A DNA stretch of 64,000 nucleotides from a virus, in IMG/VR virus record IMGVR_UViG_3300033233_000004, positions 1-64,000 of that record. The stretch is one strand, 5' to 3'. The first letter of the stretch is position 1, and the number at the start of each line of letters is the position of its first letter. The position numbers and the translations under genes are program-made. The notes beneath the pieces are model-generated. The model was given only the letters and a program-made list of their open reading frames with translations, made no database searches and was not told the origin of the DNA. Below are positions 121-23,626 of the stretch, piece after piece.

Positions 121-3100
121 AAAACTTGAGAGATGAACCAAACTTCAATGCAGCAAGAGTAGACATTTCATGCAATCGTTTACGAATACGATTTTTATCT
201 TCATCGGTGGTAGCTTTATGTAATGCATCCAACAGACGATTAATTTCCTCTTCAATAAGAGTGTGTTGTTCATGAGCACTTGGTGATATGAATTGAATAT
301 CTGTTTCTGTTTGCGCTTCTTGTTCTTGCTGTTGTCGAATCAATTTATCTATTTCAGATACATCTTCTCCCATTGGTTCGCCAGAAGGACTTACTGTTTG
401 TCCTACATCGCCTTCTTGATTGGGATTTATACCTATTTCTTTCATACTATCATATTCTTGTTGTGCCCTACCAATAAACTCTATAGGATAACGGTCAATA
501 AGTTGTCGAAAAATATTTATCAAATCTTCTACTATAACAACAGATAACTGCGGAAACTTAGCGGAAAGCAAATACATGAATAGCTCCATTGCTAATTTAC
601 GAGGCTCTTCGCCTGTTTTTTGAACTTGCGTTACCAAATTCTTATTCACATTTACTTTACCATTAACTAATACTTTTACATAATTAGTCGGTACTCCTTG
701 AATAGAAGTAGCAAATTCGTCATTGATATCTTGTCGAATAGCGGCTATATTTGCTGGTTCATTGACAATTTTCCCATTTTCAATTAGATAAGCAAAAGCA
801 CTTTCAATTAATAACTGCTCTGGAATATCATTCAAATAAGGATACACTGTCTTAGCTTTATTGACGTATTGTTGAACAAAATTAGTATAGACAGATGCTG
901 TAAATCGAAGTGCACTGGTTTTCGTAGGGGTTTTCCAGTCTGATACTTTAATAACGTAATATTGCTTCGGATAATAATCTTCTGTCACACCAGTCCATAA
1001 GGAAGAACCGCCGTCTTTAATATCAAATGGTGGAGAAATAAGTTGATTGGTAAATTTCTTTGCAGCCTCATCATAGTAGGTAGTTAAATCACGGGCTGTA
1101 TTTGGAGCCTTCATATATTCAGAAGTACTTGGAATCCATATCTCATCAATACCCATATCCAAAGCACGATTAATAGTTTCCAAGATAACCATCTCAGGCC
1201 AATCTCGATAATGCTGACGAAACTTAGACAACTTACCGTAAATATGTTGAGTTGTCATACCATAATCAGTAAGCTGAATTAAACCCGATGTACCAGAAAC
1301 AGTTAACAAACGAGCATCACGAAGCTGCTTTATAGCATCTTTTAACACATTAGTCATTGCTTTGCTTACTATACCAAACAACTTTGTAGAGTCAGCTTGA
1401 TACTTATTAAACTGTTTGCCGTCAGCACCTACATATATTGGCGCATCATCATTTCTTACAAAAATAGGAACAATAACCCGCTTTGCCAGTAACGTGGTAA
1501 CTACTACTTCTCCATTAGGAATACGTTGATATTGTTTCTTTGATGTTCCCTGCCCTTTTTCAGAAGACAGAAGTACGGCAGGAATAGTACCATTCTTCAA
1601 GAACATTTTTACTACAGATTTAAAATCATTTACAGCAGCTTCATTAACATCCCAATCACTTGCTAATTCGTCCAAAGTATAATTAATTGTTGTGCTATCC
1701 TTTTGACCCCATTCGCCAAGACTGTTTGGATTAATACCATCGGGAGAATCCTTTTTCATTTCCGCCAAAACATTTAACATACGATGCGGTTCAGAATTCA
1801 ATTGCATTATACCTATTTTATTTTCTGTTTCTGTCCATGCTTTATTTGTTGGAACCGTCCATTGAGGGTCAATCACATCTCCCAAAGTATATACATTCTT
1901 TTGATATGGGTCACTTTGCAATTCTACCATTACCCAAACCTTTTTCATATTTTTTTCAGCAGATATAATATCTTTTTGTTCAACAATATGCGGTTGAATA
2001 CGAGAAGTTGCTACAGCGTTTTTCCAATGTCCAGAAGCTGGATGTAACTTATTCTTTCTCCACATATTATGAACAGTCAATGCATCAACCATTTTACGCA
2101 CATCGGGGTCTGATATACCGAATGTCGATGGTTCAAGAATCATTCCAAAAGTCTCTGGGTAGTTAAGATGCATTTCACCACGGTCACTATAATCCCCATG
2201 ATTGATAGGCGAAATACGACTTGTGTACGCAAAATAATGAAGCTTACGTTTTTCTACGCTAATCTTAGCCGACGCATCATTACTTACATCATGAATTGCC
2301 CTACTCAATTGTAAACTAATCTCTTCCAAATCATGATGAGTAAGACCATATTGAGGAACATTCAAAACACTTTGTGTATATTGATTAGTTCCATATGCAG
2401 AAATCAATCCTCGAATATCATTTGCATTTTCTGGTATAAGCTTAAGTAAAGCCTCACGAGAAATCAAATGTTGATTTTTATTAGCTTCAAGAAATGTAGA
2501 AAGTTGTTGTGCAAATGTAGATACTTGTTGTTGTGTGGGAGTATAGCCTTCTGCAAATTCTTCATAACGATCTTTTGAACGAACTTGTTCTTTTTCTTTC
2601 TCATACTGAGACACACGACCGATAAGTTTACCATTAACTTTCGGGTCTATGCCTAAGCGGGCTAATTCTCCATCCTTTACCATCTGTATTAAACCATCTT
2701 TTGTAATCCAGTCTGCTATAGGTAATTTTGGATTCAACAGATTTAATAAGTCTTGTTTACGGTCGGCAGTCTTTTCAAATCTAATATGTATTGTAGATTT
2801 CACATACATCCAAGCATCTTGTTCTGCCTTAATCTTTAATACCGATGCATCAAATGGTATACCTGCTAATCGTGCAGCATCAGCAGCAGCATGAGCAGCA
2901 TGAGCAGCAGCATGAGCAACATAAGCAGCATCAGCAGCAGAAGAAGCAGCATAAGCAGCAGCATAAGCAGCAGCATAAACAGCATAAGCAGCAGTATAAG
3001 CAGCATTAGCAGCAGTATAAGCAGCATGAGCAGCAGTATAAGCAGCATCAGCAGTTTCTTTTGTTTGCTGCTTCAACCACAGTCTCGCTGCATCAATTGC

Positions 3101-4891
3101 TGCACGAGGACGGTTATCATTGGGATATGCATCTTCAAATATTTTGATTACTGCTTCTGCACAATATACTGCCCATAAGACGTTAACTATCTTTTCGTCT
3201 GGTTTAGTAGATGGAAGTTGAGAGATAATGTCAGCAGTTGCAATAAAAGAAAGTTTGGACAGCTTCCAATGTAGTGCAGCAGTTTTGTAAACGAACTGAC
3301 GTAGTTGTTCTGCAAGAACCTTGGCAAGCTCTTTTTCAGAGGAATCCATCATTACTTCCAAATGCGATTTTTGTGGTTCTTCAATAGCTCGTTGCCATTC
3401 TTCTTTACTCTTCTTACCACTAATAGCAAAGAAGTTCAATGGGGTACCTGTATTATTTGTAAATGTTGTAGATGATTCTCCAAGTCCTACTGCATTTTCA
3501 AAGTCTGCATAGTCAAGATTACATCCACTAAAAGTAGAACCAACCAAGTTAGCTCCCGAAAAGCGAACATTCTTGCCATTAAGTGGTGAGAAATTACAGT
3601 CAATAAATACAGCATTCTCTAATTGAGCATTAGAAAAATTACAACCACTAAAATTCACATTAGAAGCTTTTATAGGCAATTGTACACCATGCAAATCCAA
3701 ACCTCGAAAATCTTTATTGGTTTTGAATATTTCTTCTACTACAATCTCTGCATGAGTTGCCTCAGAAACAAATAGATTGAATGCTTCAATTCCATCTTTT
3801 CCCTTTCTCAAAAACGAAACAACTACAGGAACCATATCTGTTACAGTATCTGTTGGCAAGAATCTACCTAATTTGATATCCCTGTTTTTCTTAATAACCT
3901 GACCTATAGCATCCACAATAGACTCAATATCTAAATTAGAAGGAAAAGCTTTCCCAACAATTTGTTTTGCCATATCGACAATAACAGAATCTGGAAGAAC
4001 ACTACCCATTGGGTGTTCTCGTAAAAGTGAAGACACAACTTCTGGCGTAGTTTTGCTGACTAACATATTTACATAAGTACGAGAGGTCTTAACGTCATCC
4101 ATGGTTGGTGCCGCCTCACCAACATGTTTAATTTCACTTGCCATATATTGAATTTCTTTTCCAATAGCGGCTTCTATAGATGTATGTGGTGGTATATTTT
4201 CTCCGCCCCACCATTTCTTAATAGTAGGTACATTTTGAGGAGAGAAGTTGTCTGCAATAATACCGCCTTTGATGTACTTACGTATATCATTAAACAATAC
4301 CTTCTTATTGTCTGGATGAGTATCCATAAATTTGTAAACATATTTATACTCAGGATGTGCTTGCTTGAAATATTGGTATGCTTCTTCAAGTTGAGCATCA
4401 GAAAGAGTTGTCATCTCTGCACGATACTTAGTATGCGCTTGACCCACAACAGACAATTGGTAACCTTCTCCTGTCTCCGTGATAATACCTCGTTTTATCA
4501 AATCTGCAAAAGCTCTACGAGCAGATGGAGTTGTAAGACGTGATATTACTATGTCTTTAAGAATATAAGGAGATTTTTTGAAAAGAGTAAAAATTTTATT
4601 GTATGTTGCAGTAGTGGGAATATCATAATTGTATGTCTCAGCTTGAGATTGAGTTGTAACATATTGAGCAATAGTTTTTCCATATCTACTTAGCGTATAA
4701 TGTTCCTGCTGTTCAATATATACAAGACCTCCTTGATACAATTGTTGAAGAAGTGATGCCACAATGTTTTCGTCCAAACCAACTGCTTCAGAGATTTCAC
4801 TTACATTTTGTGAAACATTTGAAGCATTCATTTGGAGTAGAACTTTGTACATCGGAGAGTCAGGCTGAAAAGAAATGGTAGCTGACCTCAT
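2..4891 (-). CDS. Giant multidomain protein, probably virion-associated (>1630 aa, 3' end outside window)
   Basis: Translated by hand from ATG 4891 (MRSATISFQPDSPM...), open to base 2; missing from the ORF track because no stop lies in the window. Contains an N-terminal wHTH-like segment, pentapeptide repeats (~3491-3714), two Imm5-like modules (VLWAVYCAEAVIKIFEDAYPND..), an Ala-rich tract and a VELQSD...WPEMVILETINRALDMGIDEIWIP domain. Confidence 0.85.
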   Translation of the reverse strand, partial: MRSATISFQPDSPMYKVLLQMNASNVSQNVSEISEAVGLDENIVASLLQQLYQGGLVYIEQQEHYTLSRYGKTIAQYVTTQSQAETYNYDIPTTATYNKIFTLFKKSPYILKDIVISRLTTPSARRAFADLIKRGIITETGEGYQLSVVGQAHTKYRAEMTTLSDAQLEEAYQYFKQAHPEYKYVYKFMDTHPDNKKVLFNDIRKYIKGGIIADNFSPQNVPTIKKWWGGENIPPHTSIEAAIGKEIQYMASEIKHVGEAAPTMDDVKTSRTYVNMLVSKTTPEVVSSLLREHPMGSVLPDSVIVDMAKQIVGKAFPSNLDIESIVDAIGQVIKKNRDIKLGRFLPTDTVTDMVPVVVSFLRKGKDGIEAFNLFVSEATHAEIVVEEIFKTNKDFRGLDLHGVQLPIKASNVNFSGCNFSNAQLENAVFIDCNFSPLNGKNVRFSGANLVGSTFSGCNLDYADFENAVGLGESSTTFTNNTGTPLNFFAISGKKSKEEWQRAIEEPQKSHLEVMMDSSEKELAKVLAEQLRQFVYKTAALHWKLSKLSFIATADIISQLPSTKPDEKIVNVLWAVYCAEAVIKIFEDAYPNDNRPRAAIDAARLWLKQQTKETADAAYTAAHAAYTAANAAYTAAYAVYAAAYAAAYAASSAADAAYVAHAAAHAAHAAADAARLAGIPFDASVLKIKAEQDAWMYVKSTIHIRFEKTADRKQDLLNLLNPKLPIADWITKDGLIQMVKDGELARLGIDPKVNGKLIGRVSQYEKEKEQVRSKDRYEEFAEGYTPTQQQVSTFAQQLSTFLEANKNQHLISREALLKLIPENANDIRGLISAYGTNQYTQSVLNVPQYGLTHHDLEEISLQLSRAIHDVSNDASAKISVEKRKLHYFAYTSRISPINHGDYSDRGEMHLNYPETFGMILEPSTFGISDPDVRKMVDALTVHNMWRKNKLHPASGHWKNAVATSRIQPHIVEQKDIISAEKNMKKVWVMVELQSDPYQKNVYTLGDVIDPQWTVPTNKAWTETENKIGIMQLNSEPHRMLNVLAEMKKDSPDGINPNSLGEWGQKDSTTINYTLDELASDWDVNEAAVNDFKSVVKMFLKNGTIPAVLLSSEKGQGTSKKQYQRIPNGEVVVTTLLAKRVIVPIFVRNDDAPIYVGADGKQFNKYQADSTKLFGIVSKAMTNVLKDAIKQLRDARLLTVSGTSGLIQLTDYGMTTQHIYGKLSKFRQHYRDWPEMVILETINRALDMGIDEIWIPSTSEYMKAPNTARDLTTYYDEAAKKFTNQLISPPFDIKDGGSSLWTGVTEDYYPKQYYVIKVSDWKTPTKTSALRFTASVYTNFVQQYVNKAKTVYPYLNDIPEQLLIESAFAYLIENGKIVNEPANIAAIRQDINDEFATSIQGVPTNYVKVLVNGKVNVNKNLVTQVQKTGEEPRKLAMELFMYLLSAKFPQLSVVIVEDLINIFRQLIDRYPIEFIGRAQQEYDSMKEIGINPNQEGDVGQTVSPSGEPMGEDVSEIDKLIRQQQEQEAQTETDIQFISPSAHEQHTLIEEEINRLLDALHKATTDEDKNRIRKRLHEMSTLAALKFGSSLKFSDIISQLPSTKPDERIVNVLWAVYCAEAVIKIFEDAYPND
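2874..3056 (-). repeat. Low-complexity GCT-rich tandem tract encoding AAY/AAH/AAD/AAN Ala-rich repeats
   Basis: gcagcatNa-type repeats on +; in frame within the giant ORF (ADAAYTAAHAAYTAANAAY...). Confidence 0.9.
3115..3234. repeat. Direct repeat copy of 1-120, encoding an Imm5-like module
   Basis: 118/120 identity to 1-120. Confidence 0.95.
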
Positions 4892-19002: not shown

Positions 19003-19034
19003 ACAATAAAAATGGGGCAGTATTAGTGCCCCAT
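19003..19034 (-). terminator. Rho-independent terminator ending the RAMP/guide operon
   Basis: atggggca-N7-tgccccat stem followed by a U-tract on the minus strand. Confidence 0.85.
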
Positions 19035-19083
19035 GCAGGAATCAGGGAATATAAAGAAATGATACCTTTTGAACTAAATTTCA

Positions 19084-19365
19084 ACCGTAACAAACCCGAA
19101 CGTACCGTGCCTTGACTAACCTCGCAGCATCATACAAAACCTAATTTTTGAACTATGAAACACTTTTAGAGCATTTCATAGTTATATAAACCGAACTCTA
19201 CCCCAACGCACCATACCCCAACTTACCATACCGAGTCCTACCTAACCTTATTTTCGAACCATGTAACACCTTTAGAGCATCACATGGTTAATGTAACCAA
19301 ACTCCACCATAACCCAACTTACCACAACGCACCTAAACATAACATACCAAGCCGCGCCTTACCTT
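19084..19365 (-). ncRNA. Downstream guide-like array: three GGY/GTY-NN pentamer tracts (19084-19143, 19190-19249, 19296-19365) and two 33-nt hairpins (19151-19183, 19257-19289)
   Basis: 12, 12 and 14 in-phase pentamers; hairpins have 14-bp stems and a CUAAA loop. Confidence 0.85.
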
Positions 19366-19377
19366 ATGAAAAGAGTC

Positions 19378-19977
19378 TTACACGCTCTTCACGGATACAA
19401 CACTGAATCGTCCATGCTCAGGTCGCCAGTCACCGAGACCAACCACTCTACCAGCTACATCAACGAAACGCTTCACAGCCGCTTCCTCAATGAGGTCAGG
19501 CATAAATGTCACATTGAATGCCAAAGCCCATTCAGCAAACTCAGGACGAGTACGCATAACACTCGACCCCATGTTGACCTTGACTGCCGTGTAGCTCTTA
19601 TTGTTACCCTCGGAATACAGTTTCTTGATGTCCTTGGCACCAGTGTATTCAAGAACCGCATCTGCCTCGACAATGATGCTGGACTTGGCGGTCGTGGCTT
19701 CCTTGGATTTCTTTGCCGCATTCACAAGGGTCGCCTTGAGAACGTAATCTGGAATTACAACTTGTTTCTTGTCATTCAGATACAAACTGGCGAACCATTC
19801 GAGACGACCCATCTCAAGATAGTCCTCGTCCGTCTTGTTCTTCTTTTTAGAAATGGCTTTCATCGCCTTTGATACTTCGGAAAGTGGGTCTTTCAACGCC
19901 ACACCATTGTGAAGAATTAGGCTACTATCGCCCTTGATTTTGAACTGCAATGTTTGTACACCTTTGGCGTTTGCCAT
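19378..19977 (-). CDS. Stand-alone Cas7/RAMP-like protein (Vipr-like), 199 aa
   Basis: Start corrected to ATG 19977 with AAAGGA RBS. RAMP hallmarks: FKIKGDSSLILHN, VVIPDYVLKATLVNAA, RTRPEF..W, and G-rich loop AGRVVGLGDWRPEHGRFSV. Confidence 0.8.
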   Translation of the reverse strand: MANAKGVQTLQFKIKGDSSLILHNGVALKDPLSEVSKAMKAISKKKNKTDEDYLEMGRLEWFASLYLNDKKQVVIPDYVLKATLVNAAKKSKEATTAKSSIIVEADAVLEYTGAKDIKKLYSEGNNKSYTAVKVNMGSSVMRTRPEFAEWALAFNVTFMPDLIEEAAVKRFVDVAGRVVGLGDWRPEHGRFSVVSVKSV

Positions 19978-20060
19978 TGTGATTATTCCTTTGCTTTGTT
20001 CGTGAATCATTGTATCGTTACTGCATGTCGAACGACTTGACCTTTGAAAATAAAAAAGAA

Positions 20061-20367
20061 ACCACACCTTACCGAGCCGAAAAACTACCGCAACTCACCC
20101 TACCGTAACGGGACAAACCGTACCACGCCATATTTTACATCTTGAACCTTGAAGCACCTTTAGAGCACTTCAAGATTGAATTTCAACCATACCTTAACGG
20201 AACAAACCGCATCTCACCACAAACATAACGCACCGAGCCGCACCGTGCCTCGCCATATTTTTTTGAACTCCGACCAGCCTTTAGAACTAATCGGAATTGA
20301 GAAACTTACCGTACCACGACTTAACTTACCGAGCCTAACCCTGACTCACCATATCCGAACCGAACCA
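20061..20367 (-). ncRNA. Upstream guide-like array: three GGY/GTY-NN pentamer tracts (20061-20131, 20186-20256, 20303-20367) and two 33-nt hairpins (20145-20177, 20266-20298)
   Basis: 14, 14 and 13 pentamers (two tracts carry a 1-nt insertion); same hairpin architecture as the downstream array. Confidence 0.85.
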
Positions 20368-20369
20368 AA

Positions 20370-21323
20370 TTACACTCTTTGTGCTTTCTTTTTTCCAACC
20401 ACACTTACCAACGCAGACCCACGCTTCTTTGAACGCAGTGTACGCTTCTGACTCTTCACAGGCGTAGTCTCCACCTTCGTCCGTTCAATAGGACGAAATG
20501 TAAAGCCCTGCCGTGCAAGCATTGGTCGAGCGTACTTCTCGGCAACTTTCCTCAGTTCTTCTGCCTTGCGTTGCTTCATGTCGTCTTCACTCATACCAGT
20601 GTACCCTTGCATCGCTTCCTCGACTTCTCTCGGAATAGAATAGAGAAGTGGTTTGTGTGTAATACCAGTATTGTCCACGGTAATAAGAAGTGCACCAATG
20701 GATACCGTGTTTCCATACCCCATGAACTCGGTAGGATATTCCCAACAACCGTTGTGGATGATACGCACGGCACCATCGAACTTCTCTTCATACCGATGAA
20801 GATGTGCACCAACCAACATAGCTACTGGTTGCATCTCACTGTGACGTGTACGTTGAAACACAATGCGTTGTTCTGTCATAGTATTTCGAGATTTATGCGT
20901 GAAGACTATATCCCCATATGGAGTACCTATTGTTTGTATAACTTTATGATGCTTACCGCCCAATTTTTCAGTTACCTGTCGGTCTGCATCAAAACCCGAC
21001 CCCTTACCATAGTGGTAACCACTACCTGTTACACCGAGAACACGAATCTTTCCACCATAGAGCAATGGCTGAATCAGTCTAACAGCATCAGATACCTGTT
21101 CATCTACGTCAGTCAACCAAAGAGTAGACGAATCTTTGTGAGCATTACCATCGACCATATCTCCAAGTAAGACGATAGTATCAATAATAGGTAATACTAA
21201 TCGAACCATATATTCCCATTGATCTATAGCCCACGTCTGGAATGCATTCATACTTTTATTAGCACGTGAAGCAAGACCGTACTGAGAACCATCATGTATA
21301 TCATTAAGGACGAGAATATTCAT
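20370..21323 (-). CDS. Calcineurin-like metallophosphoesterase
   Basis: NDIH, LGDMVDG, GSGYH, TH, GAHLH motifs; basic C-terminal tail. Confidence 0.8.
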   Translation of the reverse strand: MNILVLNDIHDGSQYGLASRANKSMNAFQTWAIDQWEYMVRLVLPIIDTIVLLGDMVDGNAHKDSSTLWLTDVDEQVSDAVRLIQPLLYGGKIRVLGVTGSGYHYGKGSGFDADRQVTEKLGGKHHKVIQTIGTPYGDIVFTHKSRNTMTEQRIVFQRTRHSEMQPVAMLVGAHLHRYEEKFDGAVRIIHNGCWEYPTEFMGYGNTVSIGALLITVDNTGITHKPLLYSIPREVEEAMQGYTGMSEDDMKQRKAEELRKVAEKYARPMLARQGFTFRPIERTKVETTPVKSQKRTLRSKKRGSALVSVVGKKKAQRV

Positions 21324-21347
21324 TTATTATCCCTTTCTGTTATACAA

Positions 21348-21376
21348 AAGATACAACAAAAAAACTTGAAAGTCAA
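21348..21376 (-). promoter_or_regulatory. Sigma70-type promoter
   Basis: TTGACT-17 nt-TATCTT; twin of 34849-34877. Confidence 0.7.
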
Positions 21377-21453: not shown

Positions 21454-22005
21454 TCATTGCCACTCAACTTCGCCAACTACTTGAACAGCAGAACGTGTTA
21501 ATAACCTATTAAAGTACAATGGCACGTTAGCGATTATACAAAGTGGACTTTCTAAAGAGGTAAAATAGTTCAACACTTTTTCTCTATGTATATCTTGAAA
21601 TGCCGAATACACAATTTCTTGTAATGTTCCAAAACTCAAAAATGCAGCCATAGGAACTCTGTCATTTCGCTGTAAATAATGTGATTGTTTGGCAAAAGAT
21701 TCCATCAAAGGCTGGTATGCTATGATAGCCTTAAGCATTTTATCAATGTCAGTATTCGAAATACTTACTTCTTCATCAAGCTCTTGTACAAATTCACACA
21801 TCTTGCACAAAGCACATATCGAAGCATTCACCACATTGACAGGCTCATGCATATTTTCAGGCAAGCTTGGCTCCCACTCAGCAGTACTCTTTCCCACATA
21901 CTCACGAGGCATGGTCTTGAAGTAAGGACAAAAAGAAGGTGCAACTATGAGACCTTTAATTGCATCGGCAACTTCCAACTTAACTTTTGGCATACTATTC
22001 TCCAC
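21454..22005 (-). CDS. Hypothetical protein
   Basis: 183 aa, overlaps the groEL stop. Confidence 0.65.
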   Translation of the reverse strand: MENSMPKVKLEVADAIKGLIVAPSFCPYFKTMPREYVGKSTAEWEPSLPENMHEPVNVVNASICALCKMCEFVQELDEEVSISNTDIDKMLKAIIAYQPLMESFAKQSHYLQRNDRVPMAAFLSFGTLQEIVYSAFQDIHREKVLNYFTSLESPLCIIANVPLYFNRLLTRSAVQVVGEVEWQ

Positions 22006-23626
22006 CCATAGCTGGCATTCTTAATTTATAGTACATCTCGTTTCTCACATCTGTAATAGTTGCCTCCGTCGTCAATACAGTTCCTGCCACTGATGCTGCA
22101 TTTTCCAAAGCGATACGTACAACCTTTTTCGGATCAACAACACCATCTGCAATTAGATTAGAGAATCGTTCTGTAGCAGAGTTGTAACCAAAATCGTCAG
22201 CCCCTTTTAGTACTTTATCAAAAATAGACCTTGGTTCCAAACCAGCATTCTCAAGAATCTGTGTAAAAGGAGTCTTAAGAACTTTGAATACCAGTTCGGC
22301 ACCTTGTACTTGGTCATCATTAGGAAACCCCAAAGTTTCCTCGACAGCTTGACCACAACGAATCAAAGCCAATCCACCACCTGCAACAATACCCTCCTCA
22401 ATAGCAGCTTTAGTAGCATTCAATGCATCTTCTACAGAGTCCTTACGTTCCTTCAATTCACTCTCGGAACCAGCACCAACTCGTATTGAACCAACGCCAC
22501 CAGCCAATTTACTTAAACGCTCCTGCAATTTCTCTCTATCATAATCAGAAGTCACAGTAGCAAGTTGTGCTTGAATTTCACCCTTACGTTGGTCGAGACT
22601 TTCCTTTGTTCCAGCCCCACCACTAATGATAGTGTTTTCTTTGGTAATCAAAACTCTGGTAGCAGTACCCAAGTCTTGCATTGTCAATGTTTCCAAATTA
22701 CGATTCAATTCAGCAGCAATAAATGTTGCTCCTGTTAATACAGCTATGTCCTGTAAAATATCCTTGCGACGGTCACCAAAACCGGGAGCTTTTACTGCGC
22801 ATACTTTAATTCTTCCTTGCATCTTGTTAATTACAAGACCAGTTAATGCATCGCCATCTACATTATCGGAAATAATGACTAACGACCTACCTGCTTGTGT
22901 CACACGTTCCAAAAGAGGAACTAATGTCTTAAGACTACTAATAGTACGGTCATATACAAGAATGTACGGATTCTCAAAATCAGCTTCACCCTTCGGTGTA
23001 TTCACAAAATACGGCGAAACCCATCCTCGGTCGAATTGCATACCTTCTACGGTATGAATGGTAGTTTCACTGGTCTTGGAATCATCAATAGTAATAGTAC
23101 CTAATTTACCAACCTTCTGCATTGCTTCAGCAATCAAATTACCGATAGAACGATCATTGTTTGCAGCAATCGTACCGATGTTCGATATAGTTTGAACATC
23201 CTCGTAAGCAACAGGTATACGTATTTTTTCAAGATGAGCAACGATTGATTTCACCGCTTTCTCAATACCCTTACGCAGTTCCATAGGGTTGGCTCCATTG
23301 GAAACCAATCGAAAGCCTTCCTGTACCATTGCTTGAGTTAGAATGGTCGCTGTCGTAGTTCCATCACCAGCTTGTTCTGCGGTACGAGTAGCTGCCTGAA
23401 GAACCATTTGAGCACCAAGTTGTTCCACAGGGTCGGCAAGGTCTATAGACCGAGCAACTGTTACACCATCTTTTGTCACATGAGGAACACCCATCATTCT
23501 CTCAATAACAACATTACGACCCTGCGGCCCTAATGTCACTTTCACAGCAGCAGCCACCTTATCTATGCCAGATTTTAATGCTATACGGGCATCTCCGGCA
23601 TACTTGATGTCTTTTTCGATAATCAT
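21995..23626 (-). CDS. groEL: Chaperonin GroEL
   Basis: VKVTLGPQGRNV, TKDGVTVA, GDGTTTAT, EGMQFDRG, KAPGFGDRRK. Confidence 0.97.
   Translation of the reverse strand: MIIEKDIKYAGDARIALKSGIDKVAAAVKVTLGPQGRNVVIERMMGVPHVTKDGVTVARSIDLADPVEQLGAQMVLQAATRTAEQAGDGTTTATILTQAMVQEGFRLVSNGANPMELRKGIEKAVKSIVAHLEKIRIPVAYEDVQTISNIGTIAANNDRSIGNLIAEAMQKVGKLGTITIDDSKTSETTIHTVEGMQFDRGWVSPYFVNTPKGEADFENPYILVYDRTISSLKTLVPLLERVTQAGRSLVIISDNVDGDALTGLVINKMQGRIKVCAVKAPGFGDRRKDILQDIAVLTGATFIAAELNRNLETLTMQDLGTATRVLITKENTIISGGAGTKESLDQRKGEIQAQLATVTSDYDREKLQERLSKLAGGVGSIRVGAGSESELKERKDSVEDALNATKAAIEEGIVAGGGLALIRCGQAVEETLGFPNDDQVQGAELVFKVLKTPFTQILENAGLEPRSIFDKVLKGADDFGYNSATERFSNLIADGVVDPKKVVRIALENAASVAGTVLTTEATITDVRNEMYYKLRMPAMGGE

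What the first reader, a model, noticed from the sequence alone, without database searches (positions are those of the whole stretch)
19003..21376. Lone Cas7/RAMP-like gene flanked by six GGY-NN pentamer tracts: candidate non-CRISPR RNA-guided system (VIPR-like)
Seen in sequence: the minus-strand order is promoter, phosphoesterase, T6-H4-T5-H3-T4, RAMP-like gene, T3-H2-T2-H1-T1, terminator. The six tracts hold 79 pentamers of 3 fixed + 2 variable bases. By my count 47 fixed triplets are GGY, 23 are GTY, and all 79 end in a pyrimidine, while the NN positions differ throughout. No cas1/2/3/5/6/8 genes or CRISPR repeat-spacer array occur in the window. Established: RAMP/Cas7 proteins polymerise along guide RNA with a fixed nucleotide period and end in a G-rich loop, as here. 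Inference: each protein subunit grips a GGY and displays the NN, so each tract is a programmable, non-contiguous guide, perhaps against competing phages or host genes. I recall a recent description of such phage systems under the name VIPR; that is unverified here.
Basis: partly seen in the sequence, partly recalled or inferred. Interest (0 to 1): 0.97.

Follow-up and report, generated by a model that had tools for sequence, protein, structure and literature searches.

The report
Phage VIPR system with phosphoesterase partner
This 172-kb uncultured phage carries a VIPR system: a small Cas7-like protein flanked by six guide RNAs built from GGY-NN five-base repeats. VIPR is a CRISPR-related DNA-silencing system first described in 2026 preprints, so this is a new example of a known kind; its one unusual feature is a phosphoesterase gene that travels with such systems.

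Summary

- **Repeat tracts.** On the minus strand, six tracts (79 pentamers: 49 GGY, 21 GTY, pyrimidine at position 3 in 78) flank a 199-aa gene. Nothing else in the 64 kb shows this periodicity.
- **The protein is a Vipr.** It matches the solved SUSP1 Vipr protein (PDB 36pp, E 5e-20) and keeps its GGY-contact residues. The predicted structure resembles Csm3/Cas7.
- **The kind is already published.** VIPR appears in bioRxiv preprints of April to October 2026, and this scan has met VIPR systems before on other DNA. This locus is therefore a new member of a known kind.
- **Local peculiarities.**
  - Four guides end in a covarying 14-bp hairpin, not the SUSP1 pseudoknot.
  - No vap1 homologue was found by BLAST.
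  - The upstream metallophosphoesterase (Mre11/PolD-DP1-like fold) lies next to a Vipr gene in all 7 loci of its family with readable DNA. It is probably a system accessory. The preprint text I could read does not mention it.
- **Targets.** There is no self-target. One guide (T2) matches 23 of 24 coding positions, in frame, of a DUF2130 nuclease-family gene in a Dysgonomonadaceae genome. This is suggestive only. The other five guides have no target.

The parts
20370..21323 (-). Metallophosphoesterase (317 aa), candidate VIPR accessory gene
   Evidence: Weak Pfam Metallophos match. Invariant D8, H10, H104, H143, H174 and H176, with D55 nearly invariant. AF2 pLDDT 86; Foldseek top matches are Rv0805, Mre11 and PolD DP1. 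Homologues lie beside a Vipr gene in 7 of 7 readable loci.
20301..20366 (-). T6: vrRNA repeat tract, 13 units (3 + 1 extra base + 10)
   Evidence: Parsed by coordinates; periodicity scan.
20266..20298 (-). H4: 33-nt hairpin tail of T6
   Evidence: MFE -16 kcal/mol, z -5.0; covariation.
20184..20254 (-). T5: vrRNA repeat tract, 14 units (7 + 1 extra base + 7)
20145..20177 (-). H3: 33-nt hairpin tail of T5
20059..20129 (-). T4: vrRNA repeat tract, 14 units (10 + 1 extra base + 4); no canonical hairpin follows
   Evidence: The 91 nt after it fold no better than shuffles.
19378..19977 (-). vipr gene (199 aa, P0001)
   Evidence: phmmer E 5.3e-20 to PDB 36pp_D 'SUSP1 Vipr protein'. phrog_4652 E 1.5e-43. 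AF2 pLDDT 94. Foldseek top match Csm3, E 1e-6. Contact residues conserved.
19294..19363 (-). T3: vrRNA repeat tract, 14 units
19257..19289 (-). H2: 33-nt hairpin tail of T3
19188..19247 (-). T2: vrRNA repeat tract, 12 units; candidate guide against DUF2130 genes
   Evidence: Target search.
19151..19183 (-). H1: 33-nt hairpin tail of T2
19082..19141 (-). T1: vrRNA repeat tract, 12 units (first four degenerate); short 5-bp stem instead of the full hairpin
19012..19034 (-). Intrinsic-terminator-like hairpin followed by a T run, closing the locus
21348..21376 (-). Weak sigma-70-like promoter match upstream of the phosphoesterase (unverified)
   Evidence: 9 of 12 matches; such sites are not enriched over shuffles.

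Best explanation
The locus is a phage-borne VIPR system. The minus-strand unit (phosphoesterase, three guides, vipr, three guides, terminator) is probably transcribed as one or a few RNAs and cut into six vrRNAs of about 100 nt.

Each vrRNA is 12-14 G(G/U)Y-NN units. Four of the six are capped at the 3' end by a 14-bp hairpin. By homology with SUSP1 Vipr, one 199-aa Vipr protomer binds each unit and holds the first three bases with H23, R144, D183, W184 and R185. The two NN bases are presented to pair with double-stranded DNA that carries the same dinucleotides separated by one skipped base. That DNA is silenced.

The metallophosphoesterase is most likely an accessory of the system. It would be either a nuclease acting on the bound target or a processing enzyme for the guide array.

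What is shown: repeat anatomy, protein homology and fold, tail covariation, and the gene linkage. What is inferred: transcription, processing, filament assembly, DNA silencing, the role of the phosphoesterase, and the targets.
For: Repeat tracts.
- They are unique in the window and far beyond shuffles.
- Unit numbers of 12-14 fall in the published range of 9-16.

The protein.
- It aligns end to end with PDB 36pp_D, SUSP1 Vipr, at E 5.3e-20.
- The SUSP1 residues that read G1, G2 and Y3 or clamp DNA (H17, K33, R39, K82, R138, D177, W178, R179) correspond to H23, K40, K46, K89, R144, D183, W184 and R185.
- H23, R144, W184 and R185 are invariant in 30 relatives, and D183 is nearly invariant.
- The AF2 model (pLDDT 94) best matches Csm3/Cas7 chains.

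Relatives. Phage wV8 and three metagenomic phage loci carry same-strand GGY/NN tracts around the gene.

Tails. The four hairpins covary: 7 of 14 pairs changed on both sides and 100% of cells are paired.

No self-targeting. No guide matches the phage's own 171,836-bp genome beyond permuted-guide controls. The preprint reports the same for its systems.

Phosphoesterase linkage. Homologues at 32-52% identity lie within about 1 kb of a Vipr gene in L005-8, L009, L012, L013, L014 and L039. Periodic tracts lie between or around them in L005-8, L009, L012 and L013. L014's spacer looks periodic by eye only, and L039 was not scanned for tracts. Gene orders differ and the Viprs are divergent.
Against: - There is no expression, processing or binding data for this locus.
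- No promoter could be assigned.
- 21 of 79 units are GTY. In SUSP1 the second G is gripped by R138 and W178, and altering GGY abolished silencing. Some units may therefore bind poorly.
- T6, T5 and T4 carry a one-base register shift.
- T4 and T1 lack the canonical hairpin.
- Five of six guides found no credible target.
- No vap1 homologue was found by BLAST. Vap1 is required in SUSP1.
- The phosphoesterase fold is generic to its superfamily and does not by itself indicate a nuclease.
Confidence: 0.9

Rival explanations
1. The VIPR core is real, but the phosphoesterase is only a syntenic neighbour shared by related large phages and has no role in the system.
For: The linked loci come from similar phages. 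Both the window's phage and L005 carry Por_Secre_tail cargo and polyvalent-protein genes, so inherited gene order could explain part of the linkage. The fold is generic. The readable preprint text never mentions a phosphoesterase.
Against: Gene order is not conserved: vipr lies upstream in L005, L012 and L013, and downstream in the window, L009, L014 and L039. The Viprs differ greatly (P0127 versus SUSP1 Vipr E 8e-5; P0001 E 5e-20). Homologues down to 32% identity are still adjacent to a Vipr. In several loci the gene sits inside the guide array.
Confidence: 0.2
2. The locus is a decaying or hybrid system whose guides are partly inactive. A SUSP1-like vipr replaced the original Vipr of a phosphoesterase-type system, and the GTY units, register shifts and missing tails are relics.
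For: All other phosphoesterase-linked loci have P0127-type Viprs and GTT/GAT-rich units. The window alone pairs the phosphoesterase with a SUSP1-like Vipr, and its units are a GGY/GTY mix. All three register shifts lie in the array next to the phosphoesterase.
Against: The vipr ORF is intact with all contact residues. Position 1 G and position 3 Y are kept in 74 and 78 of 79 units. The hairpins keep pairing through compensatory changes, which indicates ongoing selection.
Confidence: 0.12
3. The T2/DUF2130 match is a coincidence. The true targets are rival phages or satellites that are absent from the collections searched.
For: A 20-base seed is expected about once by chance in 596 Gb read on both strands (my estimate). 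A chance seed falling in a conserved motif is multiplied across a family. I ran about ten scans. The site lies only about 25 codons before the stop, a poor place for a transcriptional roadblock. The published natural targets are satellites and prophages.
Against: 10 of 11 hits are in frame with the skipped base at the wobble position. The best hit (23 of 24) is in Bacteroidales, the order suggested for the host by the GroEL relatives. Permuted guides reach at most 20 of 24 on the same loci. The backward-read control gave no hit in 401 genomes, against 3 for the guide.
Confidence: 0.5

Closest known systems
Type II VIPR of Escherichia phage SUSP1 and the Pseudomonas fulva prophage (bioRxiv 10.64898/2026.04.26.720920, 10.64898/2026.04.26.720927, 10.64898/2026.10.15.759431)
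   Same: Homologous Vipr of about 200 aa with the same GGY-contact residues. Guides of 12-14 GGY/NN units on the gene's strand, upstream and downstream of vipr. A structured 3' tail. Phage-borne. No self-target.
   Different: About 30% identity only. The tail is a plain 14-bp hairpin with a CUAAA loop rather than a pseudoknot. Three guides lie on each side, versus one upstream and three downstream in SUSP1. 27% of units are GTY. No vap1 was found; a metallophosphoesterase takes the neighbouring position. The host is probably in Bacteroidota.
VIPR-like arrays with non-canonical repeats (bioRxiv 10.64898/2026.10.21.760802)
   Same: 5-nt periodic arrays next to Vipr-like folds, with trinucleotides other than GGY. 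The phosphoesterase-linked relatives found here (L009 GAT/NN; L012 and L013 GTT/GAT/NN) fit that description.
   Different: The window's own array is mostly canonical GGY. That paper's readable text names no phosphoesterase partner.
Class 1 CRISPR backbone subunits (Csm3/Cmr4/Cas7)
   Same: RRM core, glycine-rich loop and thumb. One subunit per fixed RNA period. These are the best structural matches to the model.
   Different: 5-nt rather than 6-nt period. Non-contiguous pairing. No CRISPR array, no Cas1/Cas2 and no other cas genes. Sequence identity is 8-14%.

Membership tests
VIPR system | Vipr protein homologous to published Vipr proteins | tested here: met
   phmmer E 5.3e-20 to PDB 36pp_D, residues 9-194 against 3-188. 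tblastn to Felixounavirus Viprs E 3e-11.
VIPR system | Minimal RAMP fold: RRM core, G-loop, thumb | tested here: met
   AF2 pLDDT 94, pTM 0.88. Foldseek top hits are Csm3 chains, E 1e-6, TM about 0.54. G-loop GDWRP and thumb Arg are conserved.
VIPR system | Residues that read G1, G2 and Y3 and clamp DNA in SUSP1 Vipr | tested here: met
   H17, K33, R39, K82, R138, D177, W178 and R179 map to H23, K40, K46, K89, R144, D183, W184 and R185. The Y3-pocket residues E71/M72 map to Y78/V79, which differ.
VIPR system | vrRNA of 9-16 tandem YNNGG (GGY/NN) units with hypervariable NN | tested here: met
   Six tracts of 12-14 units; 49 GGY and 21 GTY of 79; 14 different NN dinucleotides. The GTY share is a departure.
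VIPR system | Invariable, structured 3' tail after the repeat tract | tested here: inconclusive
   Four of six guides end in a covarying 14-bp hairpin. T4 and T1 do not. No pseudoknot was tested.
VIPR system | No CRISPR array or other cas genes at the locus | tested here: met
   No array in the window. No Cas1 or Pfam RAMPs hit in the complete genome.
VIPR system | Guides follow the 1-nt skip rule on natural targets and spare their own genome | tested here: inconclusive
   No self-target beyond controls. One candidate target, T2 against DUF2130 at 23 of 24. None for the other five guides.
VIPR system | vrRNAs are expressed and co-purify with Vipr; DNA binding and silencing | not testable with these tools
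   Needs small-RNA sequencing, pull-down and reporter assays.
VIPR type II (SUSP1 clade) | vap1 accessory gene (DNA-binding) next to vipr | tested here: not met
   The wV8 gene next to vipr (presumed vap1) has no tblastn match in the 171,836-bp genome; best E 2.3. BLAST only, so a remote homologue could be missed.
VIPR type II (SUSP1 clade) | Placement in the type II clade of the Vipr tree | not tested
   The paper's reference alignment and type table are not held. The only indication is that SUSP1 Vipr is the one PDB sequence hit that aligns end to end, with phage Viprs at 30-36% identity.
Class 1 CRISPR-Cas | CRISPR repeat-spacer array plus Cas1/Cas2 and several RAMP subunits | tested here: not met
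   There is a single RAMP-fold gene.

The most novel reading that the evidence does not exclude
The metallophosphoesterase is a previously undescribed enzymatic accessory of phage-borne VIPR systems. It would be a nuclease recruited to the guide-marked DNA, or the enzyme that cuts the guide array. At least one guide (T2) would be aimed not at a rival mobile element but at a conserved chromosomal host gene of the PD-(D/E)XK nuclease superfamily (DUF2130). In that case the phage uses VIPR against its host.
Probability: 0.3. Interest if true: 0.65.

Novelty: new member of a known kind. Interest (0 to 1): 0.45.

Why it matters
VIPR is only months old as a concept, and its natural diversity and targets are barely mapped. 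This locus extends it to a large, probably Bacteroidota-infecting phage.

It offers three testable leads:
- A simple hairpin can replace the pseudoknot tail.
- A metallophosphoesterase family is tightly linked to VIPR loci. The founding preprint states that only the cellular, defence-island types carry nucleases, so a phage-borne enzyme partner would change that picture.
- One guide spells the most conserved motif of a host nuclease-family gene, which hints at use against the host rather than only against rival elements.

None of this changes the kind, which is already known.

Tried and rejected
**Databases with no useful match**
- Near-identical DNA in the phage collection: none.
- Single-protein pattern search of IMG/VR for close Vipr relatives: none confirmed.
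- Rfam on the locus: no family.
- Pfam, NCBIfam and PADLOC for Vipr: no family.

**Target scans under the 1-nt skip rule**
- IMG/VR exact seeds for T3, T2, T6, T4, T1 and T5: no hits.
- An 8-unit T3 seed gave 9 hits. All look like chance: the best is 22 of 28, and most lie in short open frames.
- Metagenome scan for T3: one hit at 21 of 28, taken as chance.
- The full T3 pattern with up to 3 mismatches: not found in 121 Dysgonomonadaceae genomes.
- Window guides against all fetched loci, and relatives' guides against this genome: nothing above permuted controls.
- Other guides on the DUF2130 loci: nothing.

**Other checks that led nowhere**
- The 183-aa gene upstream of the phosphoesterase is not a second Vipr.
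- Complex prediction of Vipr with the phosphoesterase returned no verdict, so it is not evidence either way.
- The Bacteroidota promoter motif was not informative.
- The DNA of the closest Vipr relative (63% identity) could not be fetched.
I redid it by coordinates.
Full report
**Observation**

- a 317-aa phosphoesterase gene (20370-21323);
- a 392-nt spacer;
- a 199-aa gene (19378-19977);
- a 375-nt spacer ending in a terminator-like hairpin (19012-19034).

I parsed both spacers by coordinates. They hold six tracts in G-[G/T]-Y-N-N register:
- T6, 20301-20366
- T5, 20184-20254
- T4, 20059-20129
- T3, 19294-19363
- T2, 19188-19247
- T1, 19082-19141

The total is 79 units: 49 GGY, 21 GTY, G at position 1 in 74, and a pyrimidine at position 3 in 78. 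T6, T5 and T4 each contain one extra base that shifts the register.

A scan of the whole window on both strands finds runs of at least 6 of 10 in-phase units only here and only on the minus strand. The observed maximum is 10 of 10, against at most 7 in 1000 shuffles of the spacers.

The four 33-nt hairpins fold at -14 to -16 kcal/mol, with z scores of -3.2 to -5.0. On their alignment, all 56 cells pair and 7 of 14 pairs changed on both sides. Sliding the partner by 1-3 columns drops pairing to 30-45%.

T4 and T1 lack this hairpin. T1 keeps only a 5-bp stem, which looks like the same element with its centre deleted.

**What it is**

Two preprints of April 2026 describe Viral Interference Programmable Repeat systems. 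A third (October 2026) shows SUSP1 using VIPR against a satellite, and a fourth recovers VIPR arrays by their 5-nt entropy period.

As published, VIPR has these parts:
- a roughly 20-kDa Vipr protein, described as a minimal RAMP;
- vrRNAs of 9-16 YNNGG repeats followed by an invariable structured 3' tail;
- usually one accessory gene (vap);
- no CRISPR array.

The cryo-EM paper gives the mechanism. One protomer binds each repeat. Two neighbouring protomers sequester G1, G2 and Y3. N4 and N5 pair with target DNA in which every third base is skipped.

The window's protein meets the sequence test directly:
- phmmer against PDB chains gives 36pp_D, "SUSP1 Vipr protein", at E 5.3e-20 over residues 9-194 against 3-188.
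- The contact residues named map onto identical or conservative residues: H23, K40, K46, K89, R144, D183, W184 and R185.
- H23, R144, W184 and R185 are invariant across 30 relatives, and D183 is nearly invariant.
- The AlphaFold model (pLDDT 94.3) is most similar to Csm3 chains of type III-A complexes, with E about 1e-6 and TM about 0.54.
- PHROGs places the protein in phrog_4652, of unknown function. Pfam, NCBIfam and PADLOC have no model for it.

Relatives behave as the refutation test requires:
- In phage wV8, a Felixounavirus whose Vipr is near-identical to the solved chain over the stretch shown, GGT/NN tracts flank the homologue.
- Three metagenomic phage loci with 41-46% identical Viprs carry same-strand GGC/NN tracts.

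The complete genome (171,836 bp with terminal repeats) has no Cas1 or Pfam RAMPs match. The window has no CRISPR array. I conclude with about 0.9 confidence that this is a genuine VIPR system.

**How it most likely works**

The steps below are inferred by homology; none is shown for this locus.
1. The unit from the phosphoesterase to the terminator is transcribed.
2. The RNA is cut into six vrRNAs.
3. Vipr protomers coat each tract and the hairpin caps the 3' end.
4. The NN bases search double-stranded DNA under the 1-nt skip rule.
5. Binding blocks transcription.

No promoter could be assigned. T6 starts four bases after the phosphoesterase stop codon, so co-transcription with that gene is likely.

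**The phosphoesterase**

This is the part that goes beyond a routine new member.

- *Enzyme features.* The protein has the metal-binding signature of calcineurin-like phosphoesterases. D8, H10, H104, H143, H174 and H176 are invariant in 40 relatives, and D55 is nearly invariant. The fold is confidently predicted (pLDDT 86). The best structural matches are Rv0805, Mre11, the PolD DP1 exonuclease, GpdQ and LpxH, which is generic for the superfamily. It has a basic, low-confidence C-terminal tail.
- *Spread of the family.* The family is small: 24 clusters at E below 1e-10 among 1.84 billion representatives.
- *Linkage.* Wherever DNA could be read, a Vipr gene lies within about 1 kb. In L005-8, L009, L012 and L013, 5-nt periodic tracts lie between or around the two genes.

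| Locus | Order found |
|---|---|
| L005-L008 | vipr, tracts, phosphoesterase, tracts |
| L009 | tracts, phosphoesterase, tract, vipr, tract |
| L012 | vipr, five tracts, phosphoesterase, tracts |
| L013 | vipr, tracts, a 141-aa gene, tracts, phosphoesterase, tract |
| L014 | phosphoesterase, spacer that looks periodic by eye, vipr-like gene |
| L039 | phosphoesterase, vipr-like gene |

- *The partner Viprs differ.* Those in the table are a divergent type (P0127). Against my Vipr profile, hhalign gives 97.6% probability and E 3e-12. Against SUSP1 Vipr, phmmer gives only E 8e-5. The G-loop reads GLGRFRP or GIGSFRP. Their repeats are rich in GTT and GAT.
- *The window is the exception.* It alone pairs this phosphoesterase with a SUSP1-like Vipr. 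No vap1 homologue is detectable by BLAST in the genome.
- *Comparison with print.* The words phosphoesterase, phosphatase, Mre11 and exonuclease do not occur in the founding preprint's text. It says that only the cellular types III and V encode predicted nucleases. Its supplementary type table is not held, so I cannot exclude that this gene is one of vap2-6.

I put about 0.7 on the phosphoesterase being a functional accessory. I leave open whether it degrades the target or matures the guides.

**Targets**

- *Own genome.* Under the 1-nt skip rule no guide matches the phage's own genome beyond permuted-guide controls. The best is 20 of 26.
- *Viral contigs.* Exact seeds of 8-10 units for all six guides found nothing credible in IMG/VR.
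- *Bacterial genomes.* The 10-unit T2 seed gave 11 exact hits in the bacterial genome collection. Ten of them are in frame, with the skipped base at the wobble position, in the motif YSSIKGIAGS near the C-terminus of DUF2130 proteins. DUF2130 is PF09903, classed in the PD-(D/E)XK superfamily by PMC3424549.
- *Best hit.* It is 23 of 24 positions, in a Dysgonomonadaceae MAG (order Bacteroidales).
- *Controls.* Three of 401 Bacteroidales genomes match with at most 3 mismatches, and none matches the backward-read control. Permuted guides reach at most 20 of 24 on these loci.
- *Host group.* A Bacteroidota host is plausible. The phage GroEL is closest to those of Bacteroides phages.

There are three reasons for caution:
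- A 20-base seed is expected roughly once by chance in 596 Gb read on both strands (my estimate), and a chance seed in a conserved motif is multiplied across the family.
- I ran about ten scans.
- The site lies about 25 codons from the stop, a weak position for a roadblock.

In that MAG the gene sits among housekeeping genes, not in an obvious mobile element or defence island. I rate the match as a real target at about 0.5.

**Comparison and novelty**

The closest known system is the type II VIPR of SUSP1 and the P. fulva prophage. The protein family, repeat code, guide length and strand logic are the same.

The differences are:
- a hairpin rather than a pseudoknot tail;
- three guides on each side of vipr;
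- a 27% share of GTY units;
- no detectable vap1;
- the phosphoesterase.

The preprints already say that tails, array layouts, repeat consensus and accessory genes vary among seven types. This scan has also reported several VIPR loci on other DNA. I therefore file the locus as a new member of a known kind, with moderate interest carried by the phosphoesterase linkage and the DUF2130 lead.

Noticed in passing
L009:1266-1450, 2376-2450, 3036-3105 and 3140-3230: The phosphoesterase-linked VIPR of this contig uses GAT/NN units almost throughout. Its Vipr G-loop reads GIGSFRP, where SUSP1 has GDWRP. After vipr, a further tract appears to lie on the opposite strand, convergent with the others.
   Followed up: partly
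L012:1901-2486 and L013:2915-3964: Arrays of five and six guides built of GTT/GAT/NN units. Each guide ends in a conserved GATAA-GATAA or GATAA-GGTAA motif instead of a hairpin.
   Followed up: partly
L014:1281-1673: The spacer between the phosphoesterase and a Vipr-like gene looks 5-nt periodic around a fixed GT, with many GTAAA units. My G[GTA]Y tract finder missed it.
   Followed up: no
window 19209-19233 and 19305-19329: T2 and T3 share a 25-nt block at 88% identity, with the units spelling AA-GG-AT in common. This suggests that guides arise by duplication and divergence.
   Followed up: no
window 19082-20366, the six tracts: The first variable base (N4) is almost never C: 3 of 79 units. 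N5 uses all four bases. No explanation.
   Followed up: no
window 20351, 20219 and 20079: Each of the three guides in the array next to the phosphoesterase has exactly one extra base that shifts the pentamer register. The three guides downstream of vipr have none.
   Followed up: no
L005:8990-9095: Between two guide tracts lie two short tandem repeats of another kind: four copies of an 11-12-nt unit starting GTTCGGAGTAA, then three copies of one starting CTAGGTAGTGT.
   Followed up: no
context of P0146 (no DNA held): A more distant phosphoesterase relative (E 2e-15) lies 42 nt after a 208-aa gene of Vipr-like size. The neighbourhood also holds TROVE (Ro60-like), RlaP and HNH genes, which hints at RNA repair.
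   Followed up: no
window 2844-3066: Coding repeat with 9- and 12-nt spacing (16 overlapping copies), rich in GCAGCA. Unrelated to the VIPR locus.
   Followed up: no
window 21995-23626 (-): Phage-encoded GroEL-like chaperonin (543 aa). It is 52% identical to those of 167-179-kb Bacteroides thetaiotaomicron phages (DAC16 and others), a hint at the host group.
   Followed up: partly
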